This document shows positions 3,564 to 58,342 of a DNA stretch of 64,000 bases, one piece after another. Source of the DNA: a virus. How positions within the stretch are numbered: the first letter of the stretch is position 1; each line of letters opens with the position of its first letter. The notes under the pieces were generated by a model. The model worked only from the letters and a program-made list of their open reading frames with translations. It was not told where the DNA came from and ran no database searches. The DNA is taken from IMG/VR virus record IMGVR_UViG_3300023245_000006, positions 1 to 64,000 of that record, one strand, 5' to 3'. A program made the position numbers and the translations under genes.

Positions 3564-3614
3564 AAATAAAAAATAATTTTTGAAATGTGGACGGAATTAT
3601 GTAAATATAAACAC

Positions 3615-6600
3615 ATGTCAAAAGAATTTCTAAGCAATCTAGTCCACCACCGAACCTACGCAAAATATCTCCCAGAACACCAAAGACGAGAAACCAAATA
3701 TGAGACGATTACTCGAAATTTGGAAATGCACTGCAAAAGATTTCCACATCTTAGAGAAGAAATCACCAAAGCCTATGATCCCGTTTATAAAGAAATGGCG
3801 ATCCCTGCTATGCGAGCATTGGAAGATAGTACCCCGATTAGAACAGATATCGGATGGTCGATAGTCGGTGAGATAAAAACTGGTGATATGATTTTTGACT
3901 CCATAGGTGAACCAACATGTGTGGAAAAGGTTTTAAAATTTGATAACGTAGATTTATATGATGTATGTTTTAGTGATGGATCAAAATTAACATCATGCGA
4001 TGAACATCTATGGGTAGTTGCATCTGCTGATGATAGACTTTCTGGAAAAACGCGCATTGTAACAACAAAGCATATAAAAGAACATTTAACCCAAGGAAAG
4101 GTTAATAATTTTTGTATATATAATCCAAAGCCCATCAAACTACCTCATAAAGAACTATTTATAGATCCATATATAATGGGTTTATGGCTTGGTGATGGAT
4201 ACTCACCAGAATACCAATATTCAAGTAGTGTCGAAGACTCTTCGTTCTTCTCCGAACAATATAAAAATGCTGGATATGAAGGAATACAAAGTAAATCAAC
4301 CAACATATGGACTTGGACATGTCGTGGACTTTCTACCGATTTATGCAAATATGATTTAATAAATAATAAACATATTCCACAAGAATATCTCAATGGATCT
4401 ATTGAGCAGAGATTGTCGCTATTACAGGGTCTTATCGATTCCGATGGCTGTATAGATAAGAACGGAAAGGTACATTTTTCTAACACAAATAAAAAAATGA
4501 TTTCTGGTATCGTAGAACTCATATCGAGTTTAGGAATAAAATATACTCAGGAAGATATAAAACCAAAAAGTGAAAACCATAAACCGTCTCATATTATTAG
4601 GTTCACATCCGGCCTCGAAATCTCCAGATTACCTAGAAAGAAAGAAAATATAAGAAAAGATATATTGAAACAAACAGAACATAGAAAAATTATATCTGTA
4701 GATTTTGTTAAAAAAGGATCAGCAACATGTTTTGTTGTTTCTTCACCAGATAGAACATTTCTCGCTGGTAGGGAAATGATTGTGACTCATAATTGTATGC
4801 AATTTAGTGGTGAACCAATCGAACGGCGACAAAATCGCGCATTTAATTGTACATTTTTAAATATCACAAAATTTGTCGATATGGCTGATCTTTTTTATCA
4901 ATCGATGTCTGGTGCTGGTGTTGGTTATAGTGTTAAACAAAGGCACATTTCCCAATTACCGATTATTAGTGATGGTATTAATACCGAGAAATTCGTTATC
5001 CCCGATTCTGCGGAGGGTTGGTCAAATAGTTTGATTAAACTTCTCGAAAATCCTGATATACAATTTGATTATTCCCAAATTAGATTGATGGGCGAACCAT
5101 TATCTACAGGAGGCACGGCATCGGGTCCAAAATCGTTGATTCATATGCACTCGAATATTAGACAAATTTTACGAAAATCTATCGGTAAACAATTAACATC
5201 CTTCGAGACTCATCGGATTTGTTGCCTCATTTCAGATTGCGTGGTAGTGGGAGGTGTTAGGAGGTGCTTGTTGGGGACTGACGACGTTCTCACAGACCGT
5301 GGGTGTGTAAAACTTAGGGACGTAAAAAATGGAGACATGGTATTAACTCACAAGAATAGGTTTCAAAAAGTTGTTTCAAAAGTTAACAATGGCAGTAGAA
5401 ATCTACTTGAAATAAAAACAAACATTGGCTCTTTCTTTTCTACGGAAAACCATAAGTGGATTACTGCAACTGACCTATATGGAGGCGTATCGGAAAAACT
5501 GGCAAATGAACTTGGCGTGGAAGACACTTTGGTTTTTAATAAAACTAAAATCGAGGGAACAGAAACCCAAATGCCATCATCGCTTGAATATACCCCACCA
5601 GAGTTAACCGAAGATACGGCATGGTTTGTTGGATACTTTCTTGGGAACGGTTCATGCTCTGTTAGAAAACGTGCAGATAATGCAAACTTGGATTGTAAGT
5701 TTAGAATTGCTGCTCCCAAAAATTACCCAAAAATAATTGAAAAAATTCAAAATATATTTCCACTCTTTATCAAAACTATTTCACTATATGAAAGAAAAAA
5801 AGTGGTAGAGTTCACTACGAGTAGAGGAAATATCGCAAAATGGGGGCTGGAAAACCTAAAACAACCCAATTCTCCCATAAAAATTCCTACTTGGATAATG
5901 CAAGCCAGAGAAGAGATAAGAATGGCGTTCATTGCAGGAATTCTGGATAGTGACGGTACCGTAAGAAATGAAACAACAGAAGATGGCATTGGCACTGGTC
6001 AAGTTGCCATTGTTTCAACAAAATACGAAAATTTTGCAAAAGAATTACAATCCCTTATCTCTCTTAGTGGCATTCCCACAAGAAGGTTAGTTAAACACAG
6101 AGAGCAAAAATCGGACGAACATATAATAAAATCCATATCTTCTAGTTTTAGAAATATACTTGTAGAAAAAATTAGTGACTATTCCATAAAAATAGCTCAT
6201 GACTACGTGGTTACTAAAAAAAGCAGAGAAAGTAGCGGTCTCTCGTTTCTGAAAAACCTTGCATCAAAGCACGGAGAAAAATACAATTTGTGGAATAATA
6301 ACCCGCACATCTCTTATGAAATAATGCAAGAAAAGCAAGCCGTAGACTTTATACCAGTCAATATCTTGGGGGTATTGAAGACGAACATGGAGGAAGAAGT
6401 TTTTGATATCGAAGTGGAAGAGGATCATTCATTTTTCATTAATGGAATACTAACCCACAATTCAGCAACAATCGTGTTATTCGATCCCGAAGATACTGTC
6501 ATGCTGAACTGCAAGTCTGGAAAATGGTGGGAAAAATATCCAGAATTGGCCCGAGCCAATAATTCAGCAGTCGTTAATCGCGCAGATCCACAATCGGAAG

Positions 6601-7649
6601 AAAAGGCTCGCATGATTATTGATGCATGTTTCGCGGGTGGTCAGGCAGAACCAGGATTGGTTTGGACCAACCACGATGATGCCGGACTAAATCCATGCGC
6701 AGAAATTTCTTTTTCTGGCTCCGTGGGAGGATTTGGTGTTTGTAACTTAACTGAGGTTAATGCGTCCAAATGTTTATCAAAAGAAGATTGGTTAAAGGCG
6801 GTAGAAACTGCTACAATTATCGGTACACTTCAAGCATCTTATACCAACTTTTCTTACATCCAGCCAGAATGGAAGAAAAATGCCGAACAGGAATCACTTT
6901 TGGGTGTTTCCATTACCGGACAAGCCGAAAATATTGCTATTTTAACCCCTGAAAATTTACAAGAAGGTGCGAAACTAGCAGTCGAAATTAATAAAAAATG
7001 GGCTGAAAAAATAGGTATTAATCCGGCTAAACGTATTACGTGTGTTAAACCATCAGGAACAGCCTCGTCATGGTTAGGAACTACGGCAGGAATCCATGCA
7101 GGTCATGCTATCAAATATCTACGGAGAGTCCGATTAGATAAGGAATCGAAATTGGGAAAGGCACTACAAAGATACTTCCCTAATTTCATCGTGCCCGACA
7201 CATTTAAAGAGGGTGATATTATTATACAAATTCCTATCAGTATGTATGAGACGACACTACTTCGAACACAGGAAACATCCATTCAGTTGTTAGAACGTAT
7301 GAAAAACGTATATGATAATTGGATTCTACCGGGGCATGTCGAAGGGGATAATACCCACAACGTAAGTCTAACAGTCAGCTACCATGAACATGAGAAGAAT
7401 AATATTAAAGAATGGATGATCGAAAATCGAGAATCCTACATTGGTATTAGTCTGATTCCGTTCGATGGTGGTGACTATGCATATTTGCCATATAGTCAAC
7501 CACCACACCCAGAAGTGTTCGATATTCTCGAAAAATCCTTTAAACAATGCGAAAAAAACTTTAAATTTGAAAATATCAAAGAAAAGAAGGATATGACCGA
7601 GCATAAAAATGAAGCGGCATGTGCGGGTGGTGCATGTCTCTTAGATTAA
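3615..7649 (+). CDS. nrdJ: Class II (AdoCbl-dependent, monomeric-type) ribonucleotide reductase with two inteins; spliced product ~619 aa
   Basis: RTYA, RRET, PAMR|CMQF, AFNC, GAGVG, GGVRR|SA, NPCAEI, CNLTE, TCVKPSGT motifs and C-terminal ACAGGAC. Confidence 0.92.
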   Translation: MSKEFLSNLVHHRTYAKYLPEHQRRETKYETITRNLEMHCKRFPHLREEITKAYDPVYKEMAIPAMRALEDSTPIRTDIGWSIVGEIKTGDMIFDSIGEPTCVEKVLKFDNVDLYDVCFSDGSKLTSCDEHLWVVASADDRLSGKTRIVTTKHIKEHLTQGKVNNFCIYNPKPIKLPHKELFIDPYIMGLWLGDGYSPEYQYSSSVEDSSFFSEQYKNAGYEGIQSKSTNIWTWTCRGLSTDLCKYDLINNKHIPQEYLNGSIEQRLSLLQGLIDSDGCIDKNGKVHFSNTNKKMISGIVELISSLGIKYTQEDIKPKSENHKPSHIIRFTSGLEISRLPRKKENIRKDILKQTEHRKIISVDFVKKGSATCFVVSSPDRTFLAGREMIVTHNCMQFSGEPIERRQNRAFNCTFLNITKFVDMADLFYQSMSGAGVGYSVKQRHISQLPIISDGINTEKFVIPDSAEGWSNSLIKLLENPDIQFDYSQIRLMGEPLSTGGTASGPKSLIHMHSNIRQILRKSIGKQLTSFETHRICCLISDCVVVGGVRRCLLGTDDVLTDRGCVKLRDVKNGDMVLTHKNRFQKVVSKVNNGSRNLLEIKTNIGSFFSTENHKWITATDLYGGVSEKLANELGVEDTLVFNKTKIEGTETQMPSSLEYTPPELTEDTAWFVGYFLGNGSCSVRKRADNANLDCKFRIAAPKNYPKIIEKIQNIFPLFIKTISLYERKKVVEFTTSRGNIAKWGLENLKQPNSPIKIPTWIMQAREEIRMAFIAGILDSDGTVRNETTEDGIGTGQVAIVSTKYENFAKELQSLISLSGIPTRRLVKHREQKSDEHIIKSISSSFRNILVEKISDYSIKIAHDYVVTKKSRESSGLSFLKNLASKHGEKYNLWNNNPHISYEIMQEKQAVDFIPVNILGVLKTNMEEEVFDIEVEEDHSFFINGILTHNSATIVLFDPEDTVMLNCKSGKWWEKYPELARANNSAVVNRADPQSEEKARMIIDACFAGGQAEPGLVWTNHDDAGLNPCAEISFSGSVGGFGVCNLTEVNASKCLSKEDWLKAVETATIIGTLQASYTNFSYIQPEWKKNAEQESLLGVSITGQAENIAILTPENLQEGAKLAVEINKKWAEKIGINPAKRITCVKPSGTASSWLGTTAGIHAGHAIKYLRRVRLDKESKLGKALQRYFPNFIVPDTFKEGDIIIQIPISMYETTLLRTQETSIQLLERMKNVYDNWILPGHVEGDNTHNVSLTVSYHEHEKNNIKEWMIENRESYIGISLIPFDGGDYAYLPYSQPPHPEVFDILEKSFKQCEKNFKFENIKEKKDMTEHKNEAACAGGACLLD
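3816..4793 (+). mobile_element. Intein 1 of NrdJ (326 aa), Ala-starting class-3 type with LAGLIDADG endonuclease
   Basis: Starts ALEDSTPI, DEHLW (Trp), ATCFVV (Cys), VTHN|C end; WLGDG and LQGLIDSDG motifs. Confidence 0.88.
5265..6461 (+). mobile_element. Intein 2 of NrdJ (399 aa), canonical Cys-start with LAGLIDADG endonuclease
   Basis: CLLGTDDV...TENHKW...IAGILDSDG...VFDIEVEEDHSFFINGILTHN|S, inserted in GGVRR|SA. Confidence 0.9.
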
Positions 7650-15952: not shown

Positions 15953-17575
15953 ATGGACAAAGAAATTATATTAAAAAAATACGGTAGGATTTATAGACTT
16001 TATCCTACAAAGGATCAAATCAAAATTTTCCAAGATTGGCAAAATGGTGCCAGAGCATATGGCAATGAAATTTTATGGAATCAAACAGTTTCGGAAAGAT
16101 TTTTCGATGAAAAGAAACGAGATATCGTCGAACTTAAAATAAAGGCACTTACCGATGTTGGAAAAACCGAAGAAGAAATTAAGGTTCTAAAAGATAAAGA
16201 CTTCTGGGTTACTATTAATAACCAACTCTCGGACCAATATCCGATCAAAGACGCGATTCGTAATGGTTTTAAAGAAATCAGGACAGAATTAACCATAGAT
16301 AAGAAGGGACCAGATCGAGAACTTTTAGATAAGATTATATTAGAAAGATATCCCAATTATGTTGATCTAAAAGATTCATCTAAAAGTTATCTGGGTGCAT
16401 GTGGAGAGGGAGGAATGTATAAGGTCGGAACCGGAAAATATAAACTACCTTCGGCACTGGTCATAGGGATTTTAAAATCTAATGATAAGGCATGGACCAC
16501 GTTCTACGAAATTTGTAAGAACGGAAAAAGTGTTCAACATCTCGTTGGTGCAAAAAAGAAAAAAGCCGCAAAAGGAAAGAGAGTTGATAATTTCGGAAAA
16601 CCCAAGTTTATGAAAAAGTGGGAAATTCCTAATCTTTTATTTTCTACCGGAAATCTGAAAGGACCGAATTTTGAAAAACAACAGGTATTTATTCAAACTT
16701 TGAAGACACCGATCAAGGCAAAATTAGATGTTTATCCCATAGGGATTATCACTTCTTATACAGTTTCAAATATAGGTAAGAAGTGGTTTATTTCTTATGG
16801 TCTAAAGACCAATGTAATAGAACCAGAACATCAACACATCGAATCACAGGTAGGGCTAGATTTGGGTGTAACCAAATTCTTGACCACCACCGATAGTTCC
16901 CAAAAGACCCGAATTTTTGAATTAGACAAAACCTCTAAGAAAAGACTGGCGATTTTGAAAAATCGGGTGAAGATGATCCAGACGATTATTTCGAGATTAG
17001 AACGAGCCGAACCGATGAACTATATAGAAATCAACTGGAAACTAAAAATGTCCGACAAGACAAATCCAGATTATAAACATTTCCAGAGACATAGTAATAA
17101 TTGGTTTAGATCAAATCAAAAACTGGTTGAAACGAAATATAAAATCAATGAAATTTTGAAAAATTTTAGACATCATGTTTCTAATGTGATCACCGATAAA
17201 TATGGAACCATCGGGATAGACAATCTACAAATTTCTAACATGACCAAATCCGGTAAAGGAACCAAAGATGAACATGGTAAAAATGTTAAACAAAAGGCAG
17301 GTCTGAATAGGTCGATCTTGGAACAGGGTTGGGGAATTTTTAATAACCAATTGAAATATAAGGCATCATGGAGAGGTGCAAAGGTTATCGAAATCGATCC
17401 TAAATACACTTCCCAGACATGTCCCGACTGTGGACACGTTTCCAGAGACAATAGAAAGACACAGGCAAAGTTCGAATGCATTGATTGTGGACATAGTGCC
17501 AATGCCGATGTGGTAGGATCACAAAATAATTTGAAAAAGATTAATAAAAAGGTTGCAATACCTGAGACTTTGTAG
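15953..17575 (+). CDS. CRISPR-associated TnpB-derived compact Cas12-like (type V) effector, 540 aa
   Basis: N-terminal YRLYPTKDQ, RuvC-I VGLDLG (D303), RuvC-II IGIDNL (D423 where E is usual), KAGLNRSILEQGW, YTSQTCPDCG...FECIDCG Zn finger, RuvC-III NADVVG (D519); adjacent tracrRNA candidate and CRISPR array. Confidence 0.88.
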   Translation: MDKEIILKKYGRIYRLYPTKDQIKIFQDWQNGARAYGNEILWNQTVSERFFDEKKRDIVELKIKALTDVGKTEEEIKVLKDKDFWVTINNQLSDQYPIKDAIRNGFKEIRTELTIDKKGPDRELLDKIILERYPNYVDLKDSSKSYLGACGEGGMYKVGTGKYKLPSALVIGILKSNDKAWTTFYEICKNGKSVQHLVGAKKKKAAKGKRVDNFGKPKFMKKWEIPNLLFSTGNLKGPNFEKQQVFIQTLKTPIKAKLDVYPIGIITSYTVSNIGKKWFISYGLKTNVIEPEHQHIESQVGLDLGVTKFLTTTDSSQKTRIFELDKTSKKRLAILKNRVKMIQTIISRLERAEPMNYIEINWKLKMSDKTNPDYKHFQRHSNNWFRSNQKLVETKYKINEILKNFRHHVSNVITDKYGTIGIDNLQISNMTKSGKGTKDEHGKNVKQKAGLNRSILEQGWGIFNNQLKYKASWRGAKVIEIDPKYTSQTCPDCGHVSRDNRKTQAKFECIDCGHSANADVVGSQNNLKKINKKVAIPETL

Positions 17576-17581
17576 TAATAT
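17553..17581 (+). promoter_or_regulatory. Sigma70-like promoter for the tracrRNA candidate
   Basis: TTGCAA-N17-TAATAT overlapping the effector stop codon. Confidence 0.55.
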
Positions 17582-17587
17582 ACAAAT

Positions 17588-17780
17588 ATGTCGATGCTCA
17601 ATCGATCAAGGCGTTCGACAAAGGTAAAACTTTGTGAGCCATTAGGGTAAAACCTATTAGGACCAGAACGAAGTGGGAAGGTAACAACCCACATCTACCG
17701 AGAACGGTAGAATCATATTCAAAAGATACTGCGAACCTCTGAGGTTCTAAAAGGCCAAAGAGGTTCGCAGTTTTCTTTAT
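17588..17780 (+). ncRNA. Putative tracrRNA (omegaRNA-derived scaffold)
   Basis: Anti-repeats CTCAATC (17597-17603) and AATCATATTCA (17711-17721) are complementary to the repeat 3' half; several hairpins; terminator at the 3' end. Confidence 0.72.
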
Positions 17781-17781
17781 T
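17728..17781 (+). terminator. Rho-independent terminator ending the tracrRNA candidate
   Basis: 13-bp inverted repeat ACTGCGAACCTCT/AGAGGTTCGCAGT followed by TTTCTTTATT. Confidence 0.7.
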
Positions 17782-17902
17782 TACTACAATTCAACGATTT
17801 ATAACGAAAACATGAAAGAAAAAAATGAAAATTGCAAAAATCTACAGGTTAGCGAAAATGAGAATGCAACCCATTACAAGGCAATAGATTGTAATGGGTG
17901 CC
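17782..17902 (+). promoter_or_regulatory. CRISPR leader
   Basis: A-rich; 11-bp inverted repeat ACCCATTACAA/TTGTAATGGGT (17869-17899) 3 bp before repeat 1. Confidence 0.65.
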
Positions 17903-18467
17903 CTAACAATAGAGTTTAGAGAATGAATATGATTGAGAGCTTCTCACCGGCTTTCTCCCCAAATGCTTTCCGACTAACAATAGAGTTTAGAGAATGAATA
18001 TGATTGAGAGTCATCGCCTTGAAGATACTAACAAAAGAGTTTAGAGAATGAATATGAATGAGAGCTTATCACACCAAGTCTTGGTGGACGGTCGGCGACT
18101 AACAATAGAGTTTAGAGAATGAATATGAATGAGAGCAGAGCGGGTGGCAGATCAGGCCGCAGATATGACTAACAATAGAGTTTAGAGAATGAATATGATT
18201 GAGAGGTATTGCCAGTTCGGGCAACAGCCCTTGTTTAACCTAACAATAGAGTTTAGAAAATGAATATGATTGAGAGTCATCGCCTTCAAGATGCTAACAA
18301 TAGAGTTTAGAAAATGAATATGATTGAGAGGAGGCATCGACAATCCAAATCAATACACTGCCCTCTAACAATAGAGTTTAGAGAATGAATATGATTGAGA
18401 GAACGGCCCTTAGTAGATTGACCGTGGTGACTAACAATAGAGTTTAGAAAATGAATATGATTGAGAG
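17903..18467 (+). CRISPR. CRISPR array: 9 repeats of 37 bp (CTAACAATAGAGTTTAGAGAATGAATATGATTGAGAG), 8 spacers of 34, 17, 34, 33, 34, 17, 34 and 29 bp
   Basis: Repeats start at 17903, 17974, 18028, 18099, 18169, 18240, 18294, 18365 and 18431 with 0-2 substitutions; 3' end ATTGAGAG resembles the common ATTGAAAN end. Confidence 0.97.
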
Positions 18468-18477
18468 TAGCTAAAAT

Positions 18478-19194
18478 ATGAAAAAAAATAAAACATGGAC
18501 CAAAAAAGATGAGAAATTTCTGATAGATAATTATCGGATTAATGGTCTAAAATACTGCATGAATCACCTGAAAAGATCCGCACCATCTATCGTTAACCGA
18601 TCATTTTTACTAAACCTACAAAAAAAACATAAAGATAATCATGGCAGACCTTCCATACCGATAACCCTAAAATATATAGATGGAACAATAAAAACTTTCC
18701 CGAGTCGGAAAATCTGTTCCAAAGAAACCGGAATAAGACTAACAGAGTTCTCACTACTTTTAAAAAATTGTAACCGAAGTATAAATGGTTGGTATAATCC
18801 GGTCAAATTAGAAACCCCTATATACCTATATGATCCCGATGATAATATACATGCGGTTGATCATATATTAGAGTTCTGTTTAGAACATGGTCTCGAACCC
18901 AATATCATTGTAAGAATGATAAAAGGAACGGTTTTTTATTATAAAGGGTTCAGAAAGATCGAAACACCAAAAAAACCAAAAAATCTTAAAAGATGGGATA
19001 TTTTAATATCTCCCGATAAAAAGGAATATATTGTCCATAACATCGCGGCATTTTCTAGAGATATGGGAATCCATAAACAAGGATTCTACAAATTAAAATA
19101 TGATAATAGGTTATATAATAAAGGGTGGTTATGGGCAGATACCGTGCTGAAAGAATATAACAAAGGAAATAAATATGAAACCGTGGAAATCTAG
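18478..19194 (+). CDS. Basic protein with homing-endonuclease-associated DNA-binding modules (NUMOD/IENR-like); no clear nuclease domain
   Basis: WTKKDEKFLIDNY N-terminus; repeated (Y/I)xPD...xxFxxExGL...xKG(W/F) modules. Confidence 0.6.
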   Translation: MKKNKTWTKKDEKFLIDNYRINGLKYCMNHLKRSAPSIVNRSFLLNLQKKHKDNHGRPSIPITLKYIDGTIKTFPSRKICSKETGIRLTEFSLLLKNCNRSINGWYNPVKLETPIYLYDPDDNIHAVDHILEFCLEHGLEPNIIVRMIKGTVFYYKGFRKIETPKKPKNLKRWDILISPDKKEYIVHNIAAFSRDMGIHKQGFYKLKYDNRLYNKGWLWADTVLKEYNKGNKYETVEI

Positions 19195-56956: not shown

Positions 56957-58342
56957 TCATTGAGAAATCTGTGGTGCCCTGTTGGACAACAACGATTCCA
57001 TTGGTTTTTGAGCCTGACGGACTATAAGCTCGTCAGTGGGAGGACTGGAACTGTTCCAATAGAACCCGGAACGGTTCCAGTGTTGCTCCCGAGCAGCCTT
57101 CGGCAATAAAGGAAGGTCAAGGCTAATGTTCACGGAGCCATTCATATCTGCATTCTGTGCGTTTCCGCACCCTTTGCAAACGAACTGTTCTCCGCGTCTA
57201 TTAGCCTTCTGCACCCATCCGCAGCACGAACATCGCTGGCTGGTAAACATCGGATTTACCTCAGACACTTGGACGCCAAGTGATTGAGCCTTTTGTTTAA
57301 CGGCGTTTAGTAGCTTTGTTGCGCTCCAGTGAGAAAGTGATTTTGAGGTTCGGCGACCTCGCTTTAGATGTTTGATGCGTTCCACGCGAACAGACGCGAC
57401 TCCCGTGAAATTGAGCCGATTTACGGATTCGCCCACGAAGTTTCGGCAGTGTGATTCGGCGCGTTTAAAGCCGTCACTCCCGCGCTTGCATCGCGCCATC
57501 TTATTGTTTATATCTTTGAGGGACCATCCGTGGTTTCCCGTTTTGATCTGTGAACCATCACTCACCGAAAAGATGGACGTTTGCCCGATGTCAATGCCTA
57601 TTGCGGGAACAATTCCTATTGCGGGAACAACTCCTATTGAGGAAAGAGTCAATTCCGCAGGTTGCGGCTCTGGAATCTCAAAGGATAACGAGACCTCTGT
57701 TTTGGACATTCGAACGCTATTGAGGCGCGTTCCAGTCTCTTGTATGGAGTTAAAATGCTTGTGGTAATTTAGAGGAATTAGCAACTTCTCGCCGCGAATG
57801 CCCGTTGGGCCTCCTACAACCTTGGTGTCTTTTACGCCCGTGGTGTCCTTTGTGCCCTTGGCACCCCTCAAACTCTTGATCGTAAGCCACGCATCAAAAC
57901 TCGTTGAAATAGAAGGGTTTAGATCGAAGAATCTGCTATCTAGTTGAGCCTCAACGTGATTCGTTGCTGGACAAGAGACCTTGTTTTTTTCAATGATTGC
58001 TCGCAGAACCCGTGCCTTCTTGTGTTGCCCTGCTTTTTCAAACTCCTTTACTTGCCATTCTCTGCGCTTATTCTTCGCAAGACTGCCATTGGCAATGCCA
58101 CTAGATTGTTTCGCGGCACACTGAATTGCTCTCGCAGAAAGCCAAGTTTGAACGTTCGTAATCTCGCCGCTAGGCATCTGTTGTACTTGCTTCCCATCGT
58201 TCAGCTCGTGCCAAAACCGCCCCACGAATTCTGTCACGACGCGTGCATATTCGTCTAGGAATTCAGCAACCTTTTCGCTTTTATGAGCGTTAGCGAATTT
58301 AAGCGTTAGCCGAGACGAACGGATGTTGCGTTTTTTCTTCAT
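56957..58342 (-). mobile_element. tnpB: Solo TnpB RNA-guided endonuclease (461 aa); no transposase nearby; higher GC than its flanks
   Basis: IGIDIG, VRVERI, FTSQRCSCCG, FVCKGCG, NADMNGSVNI; D-E-D triad intact. Confidence 0.88.

What the first reader, a model, noticed from the sequence alone, without database searches (positions are those of the whole stretch)
17553..17781. Stand-alone tracrRNA candidate sitting where a TnpB omegaRNA would be
Seen: promoter TTGCAA-N17-TAATAT; hairpins TGTCGA/TCGACA (17589-17620), ACAAAG/CTTTGT, TAGG/CCTA, GTGGG/CCCAC and TCTACCG/CGGTAGA; an 11-nt anti-repeat AATCATATTCA (17711-17721) pairing with repeat TGAATATGATT; a 7-nt CTCAATC (17597-17603) pairing with GATTGAG; then a strong terminator. 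Known: Cas12f/Cas12k tracrRNAs use a short 5' pseudoknot-type and a longer 3' repeat:anti-repeat duplex, and omegaRNAs lie at the tnpB 3' end. Inference: an omegaRNA split into tracrRNA plus crRNA. Repeats 3 and 4 carry a T>A change inside the paired segment, which could weaken loading of their guides.
Basis: partly seen in the sequence, partly recalled or inferred. Interest (0 to 1): 0.75.

Follow-up and report, generated by a model that had tools for sequence, protein, structure and literature searches.

The report
Phage mini-CRISPR helper RNA (tracrRNA)
Between a small transposon-derived nuclease gene and a nine-repeat CRISPR array in a large salt-lake phage lies a strongly folded RNA that can pair with the repeats; it is most likely the helper RNA (tracrRNA) of a miniature type V CRISPR system, a new example of the published transposon-to-CRISPR "split guide RNA" stage.

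Summary
The interval 17588-17781 folds far better than shuffles (z -8.55). It carries the only copy outside the array of an 11-nt complement of the repeat, plus a 7-nt complement of the repeat's 3' end, and it ends in a 13-bp terminator with a U-tract. It lies directly behind a 540-aa TnpB-derived RuvC/Zn-finger protein and 120 nt ahead of a 9-repeat array. The record is a 96.7-kb fragment of a probably about 200-kb phage from salt-lake metagenomes, with no Cas1, Cas2 or TnpA.

The protein's nearest relatives are ordinary 400-aa IS605-type TnpBs (36-41% identity, C-terminal half only). I defined their covarying omegaRNA. It lies at the same place relative to the RuvC-III codon and has the same topology as tracrRNA plus repeat: 5' pseudoknot strand, internal stems, GUAG(G)AAUC junction, terminal helix, 3' pseudoknot strand, 2 nt, guide. 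The terminal helix is the part that is split.

However, a covariance model and an HMM of that omegaRNA do not detect the tracrRNA. No orthologous locus or RNA data could be obtained.

Verdict: a probable tracrRNA (about 0.75) of an orphan TranC-like type V lineage. This is a new member of a known kind.

The parts
15953..17575 (+). 540-aa TnpB-derived type V effector. RuvC residues D303/D423/D519, with D423 in place of the usual Glu. Zn finger C490/C493/C509/C512.
   Evidence: Pfam Cas12f1-like_TNB 1.6e-22 and OrfB_IS605. NCBIfam guided_TnpB 7e-49. Best PDB sequence hit is RdCas12n 9J09 at 2e-28, local only. Foldseek best hits are ISDra2 and ISFba1 TnpB. Alignment A1 shows three insertions relative to 400-aa TnpBs.
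17553..17581 (+). Promoter-like TTGCAA-N17-TAATAT overlapping the stop codon. Weak and unverified.
   Evidence: Sequence read. It matches 8 of 12 consensus positions and was not listed. The pattern TTGCAA-N16-18-(T/G)AnnnT occurs 11 times in 193 kb, two of them here and at 17832.
17588..17725 (+). tracrRNA core. Four hairpins at 17618-17635, 17643-17656, 17673-17692 and 17694-17711, between the pseudoknot strand and the anti-repeat.
   Evidence: Folds. Core z-score -3.9.
17597..17603 (+). CUCAAUC, complementary to repeat nt 29-35 (GAUUGAG). Proposed pseudoknot strand, equivalent to the omegaRNA 5' GACA.
   Evidence: The omegaRNA helix 1 (GACA:UGUC) is 95% paired across 57 sequences.
17706..17714 (+). 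GGUAGAAUC junction motif, matching the near-invariant GUAGGAAUC that precedes the terminal helix of the TnpB omegaRNA.
   Evidence: Present in 53 of 57 omegaRNAs and at only 7 sites in 193 kb of the phage.
17711..17721 (+). Anti-repeat AAUCAUAUUCA, an 11-bp perfect complement of repeat nt 22-32.
17728..17781 (+). Intrinsic terminator: 13-bp stem, 18-nt structured loop, U-tract.
17782..17902 (+). A-rich leader with a second TTGCAA-N16-GAAAAT promoter-like site (17832-17859) and an 11-bp palindrome (17869-17899).
17903..18467 (+). CRISPR array of nine 37-nt repeats. Spacer lengths are 34, 17, 34, 33, 34, 17, 34 and 29 nt. Repeats 3 and 4 carry T31A; repeats 6, 7 and 9 carry G19A.
   Evidence: It is the only array in the record. 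The repeat alone has almost no structure, -2.7 kcal/mol.

Best explanation
The interval encodes the tracrRNA of a phage-borne, adaptation-less miniature type V CRISPR system whose effector is a recently domesticated IS605-type TnpB (TranC-like).

Proposed mechanism (inferred unless marked otherwise):
1. An RNA of about 140-190 nt is made from roughly 17588. It comes either from a weak promoter overlapping the stop codon or by processing of the nuclease mRNA 3' end. It stops at the terminator at 17728-17781.
2. The array is transcribed separately from the leader.
3. The tracrRNA 3' segment AAUCAUAUUCA pairs with repeat nt 22-32. This rebuilds in trans the terminal hairpin of the ancestral omegaRNA.
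4. The repeat's last nucleotides, GAUUGAG (nt 29-35), pair with the tracrRNA 5' CUCAAUC. This is the equivalent of the omegaRNA 5'-3' closing helix or pseudoknot. Two nucleotides (AG) remain before the guide. The two pairings share GAUU, so the real partition is about 7 bp plus 7 bp.
5. The 540-aa protein binds this scaffold and reads a 5' PAM, possibly TTTC or TTC.
6. It then cuts, or perhaps only binds, matching DNA of competing elements or the host.

Shown here: the sequence features, the fold, the complementarity, and the positional and topological match to the omegaRNA of the closest TnpBs.

Inferred: transcription, the RNA ends, binding by the protein, and activity.
For: - Gene order is effector, structured RNA, terminator, leader, array, all on one strand.
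- The fold has z -8.55.
- The 11-nt anti-repeat is unique outside the array. Co-folding forms this duplex.
- The repeat has no hairpin of its own, -2.7 kcal/mol. It therefore cannot supply a scaffold by itself.
- The protein is TnpB-like in sequence and fold.
- The omegaRNA of the nearest TnpB clade was defined from 57 loci: 39 pairs, 88% of cells paired against 37-49% when slid, 28 pairs with compensatory changes.
- That omegaRNA starts about 40 nt after the NAD codon. It has the order 5' closing strand, stems, GUAGGAAUC, terminal hairpin, 3' closing strand, AA, guide.
- The window has CUCAAUC, four stems, GGUAGAAUC, anti-repeat // repeat UGAAUAU, GAUUGAG, AG, spacer.
- The terminal hairpin loop is where some omegaRNAs carry 20-40-nt insertions.
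- A tracrRNA-GAAA-repeat fusion adopts the omegaRNA-like closed multibranch fold at -47.2 kcal/mol, against an MFE of -49.4.
- Published Cas12n, Cas12f and TnpB guide RNAs share this core with a pseudoknot next to the guide (PMC12216341).
- The nuclease gene and tracrRNA are identical in four salt-lake runs from 2017-2019. One 150-nt contig in run X1 carries only spacer 1, flanked 5' by TTTC.
Against: - Homology was not demonstrated. The omegaRNA covariance model R1 and an nhmmer profile give no hit on 17588-17725, even when only 481 nt are searched. No Rfam family matches.
- There is no orthologous locus, so the tracrRNA's own helices have no covariation support.
- By duplex energy alone, 2.7% of natural windows pair with the repeat equally well.
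- The 5' region can also pair with the repeat in a bipartite way at -13.1 kcal/mol, so the exact pairing scheme is ambiguous.
- The promoter is weak.
- A phage TnpB-derived effector of similar size, Cas12r (564 aa), works without any tracrRNA (bioRxiv 10.64898/2026.04.20.719267).
- RuvC-II carries Asp instead of Glu, so nuclease activity is uncertain.
Confidence: 0.75

Rival explanations
1. The interval is only the structured 3' UTR and terminator of the nuclease gene. The system works with crRNA alone, as phage Cas12r does, and the complementarity to the repeat is fortuitous.
For: - Cas12r (564 aa, phage-borne, TnpB-derived) needs no tracrRNA.
- 11-nt complements of the repeat occur elsewhere in the phage by chance: one more on the + strand and two on the other strand.
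- There is no significant RNA-model hit.
- The promoter is weak.
Against: - The 37-nt repeat has no stable hairpin near the spacer, -2.7 kcal/mol, so it offers no scaffold.
- The anti-repeat is on the right strand, directly 5' of a terminator, and abuts the GUAG(G)AAUC junction motif of the related omegaRNA.
- About 140 nt of extra structure (z -3.9) is not needed for termination.
- A second complement to the repeat's 3' end sits at the 5' end, as in known guide-RNA pseudoknots.
Confidence: 0.13
2. The locus is a decaying or non-cleaving relic. The RNA may still be made, but the effector (RuvC-II Glu to Asp, and the next Asp to Asn) no longer cuts. The array, which has duplicated 17-nt mini-spacers and no adaptation genes, serves at most for RNA-guided binding or repression, or for nothing.
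For: - D423 replaces the Glu that is at least 90% conserved in related TnpBs and is present in the only full-length homologue, P0173.
- Two near-identical 17-nt spacers lie in a duplicated repeat-spacer-repeat block.
- There is no Cas1 or Cas2.
- No spacer matches public viral or metagenome collections.
Against: - The ORF is intact and identical in runs spanning 2017-2019.
- Asp is still a metal-binding carboxylate, and the other two RuvC residues and the Zn finger are intact.
- One sample holds an exact target of spacer 1 with a T-rich 5' flank.
- Six of the eight spacers are of normal length (29-34 nt).
Confidence: 0.1

Closest known systems
TranC (transposon-CRISPR intermediate) systems, Jin et al., Cell 2025 (PMID 41027434; not held, read through PMC13565253 and bioRxiv 10.64898/2026.03.27.714800), including the phage-borne CauTranC9
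   Same: - The effector is closer to TnpB than to any named Cas12.
- It sits next to a short CRISPR array without adaptation genes.
- The guide scaffold is interpretable as an omegaRNA split into tracrRNA and crRNA.
- The repeat is 37 nt and there are 9 repeats, within the reported ranges.
- It is carried by a phage.
   Different: - The protein has no relative above 41% identity, and that only over half its length. Its single full-length homologue is 29% identical.
- Similarity to LaTranC is only E 0.15.
- It could not be assigned to any published clade.
- It has REC-type insertions, unlike the minimal CauTranC9.
- Use of both guide forms was not testable.
Cas12n (type V-N / V-U4), RdCas12n structure 9J09 (PMC12216341)
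   Same: - Best solved-structure sequence match, 2e-28.
- Same length, 540 aa.
- Monomer-type TnpB-like core.
- A long tracrRNA with several stems and a pseudoknot formed by the nucleotides just 5' of the guide.
   Different: - The match covers mainly residues 404-525.
- There is no long disordered C-terminal tail and the tracrRNA does not overlap the ORF.
- The one protospacer flank is TTTC, not the A-rich Cas12n PAM.
- Anonymous TnpBs score about twice as high, 200 against 102 bits.
Cas12f (Cas14) tracrRNA:crRNA
   Same: - Miniature effector with a tracrRNA encoded between the cas gene and the array.
- A 3' anti-repeat and a second short pairing near the guide.
- Structural hits at E 1e-13.
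   Different: - NCBIfam Cas12f2 scores 61 bits against a cut-off of 450.
- PDB Cas12f matches cover the C-terminal 70-150 residues only.
- Cas12f systems usually carry cas1, cas2 and cas4; none is present here.
IS605-type TnpB omegaRNA (reRNA); weakly related to Rfam HgcC RF00062
   Same: - Same place relative to the RuvC-III codon.
- Same order of closing helix, internal stems, GUAG(G)AAUC junction and terminal helix, with 2 nt before the guide.
   Different: - It is in two pieces.
- It has four short AT-rich hairpins instead of two long GC-rich stems.
- It is not detected by the omegaRNA CM or HMM.
- There is no TnpA and there are no transposon ends.
Cas12r of Thermus Lalka phages (bioRxiv 10.64898/2026.04.20.719267)
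   Same: Phage-encoded, independently TnpB-derived effector of about 560 aa, with a short array and no adaptation genes.
   Different: Cas12r uses crRNA only; no tracrRNA is seen in sRNA-seq. Here the repeat lacks structure and a complementary RNA gene is present.

Membership tests
tracrRNA of a type V system (generic) | Encoded next to the effector and array, on a strand that allows pairing with the repeat through an anti-repeat | tested here: met
   An 11-nt perfect anti-repeat at 17711-17721 on the + strand, between the effector gene and the array. It is unique outside the array.
tracrRNA of a type V system (generic) | Expressed as a discrete small RNA bound by the effector | not testable with these tools
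   The 24 holding runs are listed as DNA (guessed); none is on record as RNA. Only a weak promoter-like site and a strong terminator can be shown.
tracrRNA of a type V system (generic) | Conserved structure with covariation among orthologous loci | not testable with these tools
   No orthologous locus was found in viral contigs. The protein searches found no close homologue.
TranC (transposon-CRISPR intermediate) | Effector nests among TnpBs rather than within a named Cas12 subtype | tested here: met
   The top 150 hits of an exhaustive HMMER search are TnpB-sized proteins, best 200 bits. The best named Cas12 (Cas12n) scores 102 bits. The Foldseek top hits are TnpB. No tree with reference Cas12 or TranC sequences was built.
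TranC (transposon-CRISPR intermediate) | Associated with a CRISPR array, without TnpA or transposon ends | tested here: met
   A nine-repeat array lies 330 nt downstream. The 96.7-kb record holds no Y1 transposase. The record is only about 46% complete.
TranC (transposon-CRISPR intermediate) | Guide scaffold is a split omegaRNA (tracrRNA plus repeat-derived crRNA handle) | tested here: inconclusive
   Position, topology and the junction motif match the omegaRNA of the nearest TnpB clade. The omegaRNA CM and HMM give no hit on the tracrRNA.
Cas12n (type V-N) | Full-length similarity to Cas12n, a disordered C-terminal tail overlapped by the tracrRNA, and an A-rich 5' PAM | tested here: not met
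   Only local similarity, mainly residues 404-525. The ORF ends 16 residues after the last conserved motif, and the RNA starts after the stop codon. The single protospacer flank is TTTC.
Cas12f | Scores above the family models' cut-offs | tested here: not met
   NCBIfam CRISPR_Cas12f2 scores 61 bits against 450, and V_cas_c2c8 scores 97 against 350. The Pfam TNB domain is shared by all TnpB and Cas12f-like proteins.
TnpB omegaRNA (Rfam HgcC RF00062; own model R1) | Detected by the covariance model | tested here: not met
   No Rfam hit at E <= 1. R1 gives no hit on 17588-17725. The same clade's omegaRNAs are hit weakly by HgcC.

The most novel reading that the evidence does not exclude
The locus may be the founding member of a previously unsampled type V or TranC lineage in a halophilic jumbo phage. 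The evidence for a new lineage is that the only full-length homologue is 29% identical and sits on a 1.8-kb contig. Its RuvC-II Glu-to-Asp change and its duplicated 17-nt mini-guides could point to a partly regulatory, binding-only use, alongside cleavage with full-length guides.
Probability: 0.25. Interest if true: 0.55.

Novelty: new member of a known kind. Interest (0 to 1): 0.4.

Why it matters
The locus adds a clean, base-by-base readable case to the 'RNA splitting' route from TnpB to Cas12. The ancestral terminal hairpin becomes the anti-repeat:repeat duplex, and the 5'-3' closing helix becomes the tracrRNA:repeat pseudoknot.

It lies in a phage, in a protein lineage with no close relatives. 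If the system is active, it would be a 540-aa effector with a designable single guide of about 150 nt and perhaps a short T-rich PAM.

It does not introduce a new principle. This scan has already met similar phage loci in at least 16 genomes.

Tried and rejected
Tools and searches that gave nothing:
The 14 contigs carrying the protein and the contigs of P0173 and P0058 could not be read.
- No relatives of the protein, of P0058 or of the repeat were found in viral contigs.
- Relatives of a virus record cannot be drawn.
- No RNA holder is listed among the 24 runs.
- Rfam gave only chance-level hits, mir-5681 on the terminator palindrome.

RNA model tests:
- The omegaRNA CM R1 over the whole window gave no hit on the tracrRNA; the best hits elsewhere had E >= 0.011 and look like chance.
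- R1 on 17480-17960 gave its best hit, 7.4 bits, on the leader palindrome plus the first repeat, not on the tracrRNA. I treat this as chance.
- nhmmer with the omegaRNA profile gave nothing.

Spacer searches:
- Spacers 1, 3, 4, 5 and 7 (first 24 nt) against viral contigs, and spacer 1 (with and without its flank) against metagenome contigs, found nothing. The whole array against GenBank phages found nothing.
- No spacer matches the phage itself.

Readings considered and rejected:
- A phage-specific TTGCAA promoter consensus: the hexamer is not enriched, 41 against 33 expected.
- A protein-coding reading of the interval: there is no + strand ORF of 50 aa or more. The - strand ORF 17173-17694 overlaps the nuclease gene and is probably spurious.
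- A cis-acting omegaRNA with its own guide: what follows the anti-repeat is the terminator hairpin.

Membership in Cas12n and Cas12f was tested and not met.
Full report
**Context.** The window is the first 64 kb of a 96.7-kb IMG/VR virus record that CheckV rates 46% complete. The phage is therefore probably about 200 kb. The sequence is held by 24 salt-lake metagenome runs from 2017-2019, listed as DNA (guessed); no RNA run is listed. Neighbouring genes are phage-like: an intein-bearing ribonucleotide reductase, an ArdC-like protein and a DUF932 protein.

**The locus.** ORF 15953-17575 (+) encodes 540 aa with Pfam Cas12f1-like_TNB and OrfB_IS605, and NCBIfam guided_TnpB at 7e-49. A non-coding stretch of 327 nt follows. 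Then comes a CRISPR array of nine 37-nt repeats at 17903-18467, with spacers of 34, 17, 34, 33, 34, 17, 34 and 29 nt. It is the only array in the record. The record holds no Cas1, Cas2 or Y1 transposase.

**Observation.**
- The stretch 17576-17781 folds at -71.8 kcal/mol against -39.7 +/- 3.8 for shuffles, z -8.55. The core without the terminator has z -3.9.
- AATCATATTCA (17711-17721) is the perfect complement of repeat positions 22-32. It occurs nowhere else in the window outside the array, against 0.23 expected.
- Over the whole record, only one other 11-nt complement of the repeat exists on this strand. That puts the chance of one in this 330-nt interval at roughly 0.003-0.007.
- By duplex energy alone the signal is weaker: 37 of 1384 natural windows pair as well.
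- CTCAATC (17597-17603) complements repeat positions 29-35. It is not significant on its own, but it targets exactly the nucleotides next to the spacer.
- The terminator is a 13-bp stem followed by TTTTCTTTATTT.
- The proposed promoter matches the consensus in only 8 of 12 positions and was not listed by the scan. Of the 11 sites in 193 kb that fit TTGCAA-N16-18-(T/G)AnnnT, two lie at 17553 and 17832, in front of the RNA and in front of the array.
- Repeats 3 and 4 carry T31A inside both paired segments. The predicted duplex falls from -13.1 to -9.9 kcal/mol.

**The protein.**
- A word-indexed search of 5.8 billion proteins and an exhaustive HMMER search of 1.84 billion representatives found no close relative. 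The best hits are ordinary TnpBs of about 400 aa, at 36-41% identity over the C-terminal half.
- One protein, P0173 (550 aa, on a 1.8-kb Logan contig), aligns over the full length at 29% identity.
- Alignment with TnpBs shows three insertions, at about residues 75-165, 190-215 and 345-375, and a shorter C-terminus.
- The RuvC triad is D303/D423/D519. D423 stands where related TnpBs and P0173 have Glu.
- The best solved-structure sequence match is RdCas12n (9J09) at 2e-28, but it is local.
- The AlphaFold model (pLDDT 67, with the insertions poorly predicted) matches ISDra2 and ISFba1 TnpB first, then Cas12f and Cas12p.
- Family cut-offs for Cas12f2 and c2c8 are not reached.

The effector is thus a TnpB derivative outside the named Cas12 subtypes. 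This is the situation published as TranC.

**Comparison with omegaRNA.**
- I fetched 80 loci of the nearest TnpB clade from bacterial genomes and anchored them on the RuvC-III NAD codon. They share a conserved RNA that begins about 40 nt after that codon and ends in GGAGGAUGUCAA, after which conservation stops.
- Its structure is a 5'-3' closing helix (GACA:UGUC), two internal stems and a terminal hairpin. It has 39 pairs. 88% of cells are paired against 37-49% when the partners are slid, and 28 pairs show compensatory changes.
- Rfam's HgcC model weakly recognises these RNAs.
- In the window the NAD codon is at 17501, so the candidate RNA (+87 to +224) lies where the omegaRNA lies.
- The order of elements agrees. 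The omegaRNA reads: closing strand, stems, GUAGGAAUC, terminal hairpin, closing strand, AA, guide. The window reads: CUCAAUC, four hairpins, GGUAGAAUC, AUAUUCA, then in the repeat UGAAUAU, GAUUGAG, AG, spacer.
- The junction motif is present in 53 of 57 omegaRNAs. It occurs only 7 times in 193 kb of the phage, one of them abutting the anti-repeat.
- Some omegaRNAs carry 20-40-nt insertions in the loop of the terminal hairpin, which is where the split would lie.
- A fusion of tracrRNA, GAAA and repeat nt 22-37 folds into the same closed multibranch topology at -47.2 kcal/mol, against an MFE of -49.4.
- The Cas12n structure paper describes the same conserved core for TnpB, Cas12n and Cas12f guides, with a pseudoknot formed by the nucleotides just before the guide.

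**Limits.**
- The covariance model R1 built from the omegaRNA alignment does not hit the tracrRNA, either in the whole window or in a 481-nt search. An nhmmer profile also finds nothing. Homology of the two RNAs is therefore not demonstrated. It is an inference from position, topology and one short motif noticed after the fact.
- No orthologous locus could be obtained, so the four internal hairpins have no covariation support. The first hairpin has a competing alternative.
- The 5' part of the RNA can also pair with the repeat in a bipartite way at -13.1 kcal/mol.
- The two proposed pairings overlap on GAUU, so the true register is uncertain.
- A phage TnpB-derived effector of similar size, Cas12r, needs no tracrRNA. 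Against that rival, the repeat here has no hairpin of its own, -2.7 kcal/mol.

**Population data.** Contigs of four runs show the nuclease gene and RNA interval without any difference. In run X1, a 150-nt contig matches only spacer 1 and continues on both sides into unrelated sequence, with TTTC directly 5' of the match. I read this as a protospacer with a T-rich 5' PAM, which fits type V polarity, but it is a single case. No other spacer found a target in the collections searched.

**Verdict.** The most likely reading, at about 0.75, is a tracrRNA of an orphan, phage-borne, TranC-like type V system. The repeat:anti-repeat duplex and the pseudoknot correspond to the terminal hairpin and closing helix of the ancestral omegaRNA. 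The principle is published, and this scan has already noted similar phage loci in at least 16 genomes. This is a new member of a known kind.

Noticed in passing
window 18011-18027 and 18277-18293: Two near-identical 17-nt spacers that differ at positions 11 and 17. They lie inside a duplicated 91-nt repeat-spacer-repeat block (17974-18064 and 18240-18330, 93% identical). The array therefore grew at least once by segmental duplication. Neither spacer matches the phage itself at 3 or fewer mismatches.
   Followed up: partly
window 17219-17221 (residue 423): The RuvC-II catalytic Glu is Asp and the following Asp is Asn (TIGIDNLQ against AIEDLR). Related TnpBs and the only full-length homologue, P0173, keep Glu-Asp.
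   Followed up: partly
window 17940-17973, run X1: A 150-nt Logan contig from the same lake matches spacer 1 only and has unrelated flanks, with TTTC immediately 5'. It is a candidate protospacer and PAM. The target organism was not identified.
   Followed up: partly
window 18402-18951, run X17: A 2017 contig joins 18401 directly to 18952. It lacks spacer 8, repeat 9 and the first 475 nt of ORF 18478-19194. This is a deletion or insertion polymorphism at the array's distal end.
   Followed up: no
window 17838-17919: The leader palindrome (17869-17899) plus the start of repeat 1 gives the best, though weak (7.4 bits), local match to the omegaRNA model. The leader also contains repeat fragments: GAGAATG at 17860 and CAATAGA at 17882. 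It may be a degenerate repeat or chance.
   Followed up: partly
window 56957-58342 (-): A second, unrelated TnpB-like ORF of 461 aa (Pfam TNB domain 1.7e-17; 36% identity to the first over 86 aa). It has no array nearby, and its 3' end looks structured. It may be an ordinary TnpB with an omegaRNA.
   Followed up: partly
P0173 (550 aa, Logan contig of 1805 nt): The only full-length homologue of the effector, 29% identical over residues 10-528. It shares the N-terminal insertions, so a small family exists, but its context is unavailable.
   Followed up: partly
GenBank phages: 182 Salinibacter ruber phage records carry weaker TnpB-like matches to the effector's C-terminal half. They were not examined.
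   Followed up: no
window 3585-7649: A ribonucleotide reductase ORF of 1354 aa interrupted by two LAGLIDADG inteins.
   Followed up: no
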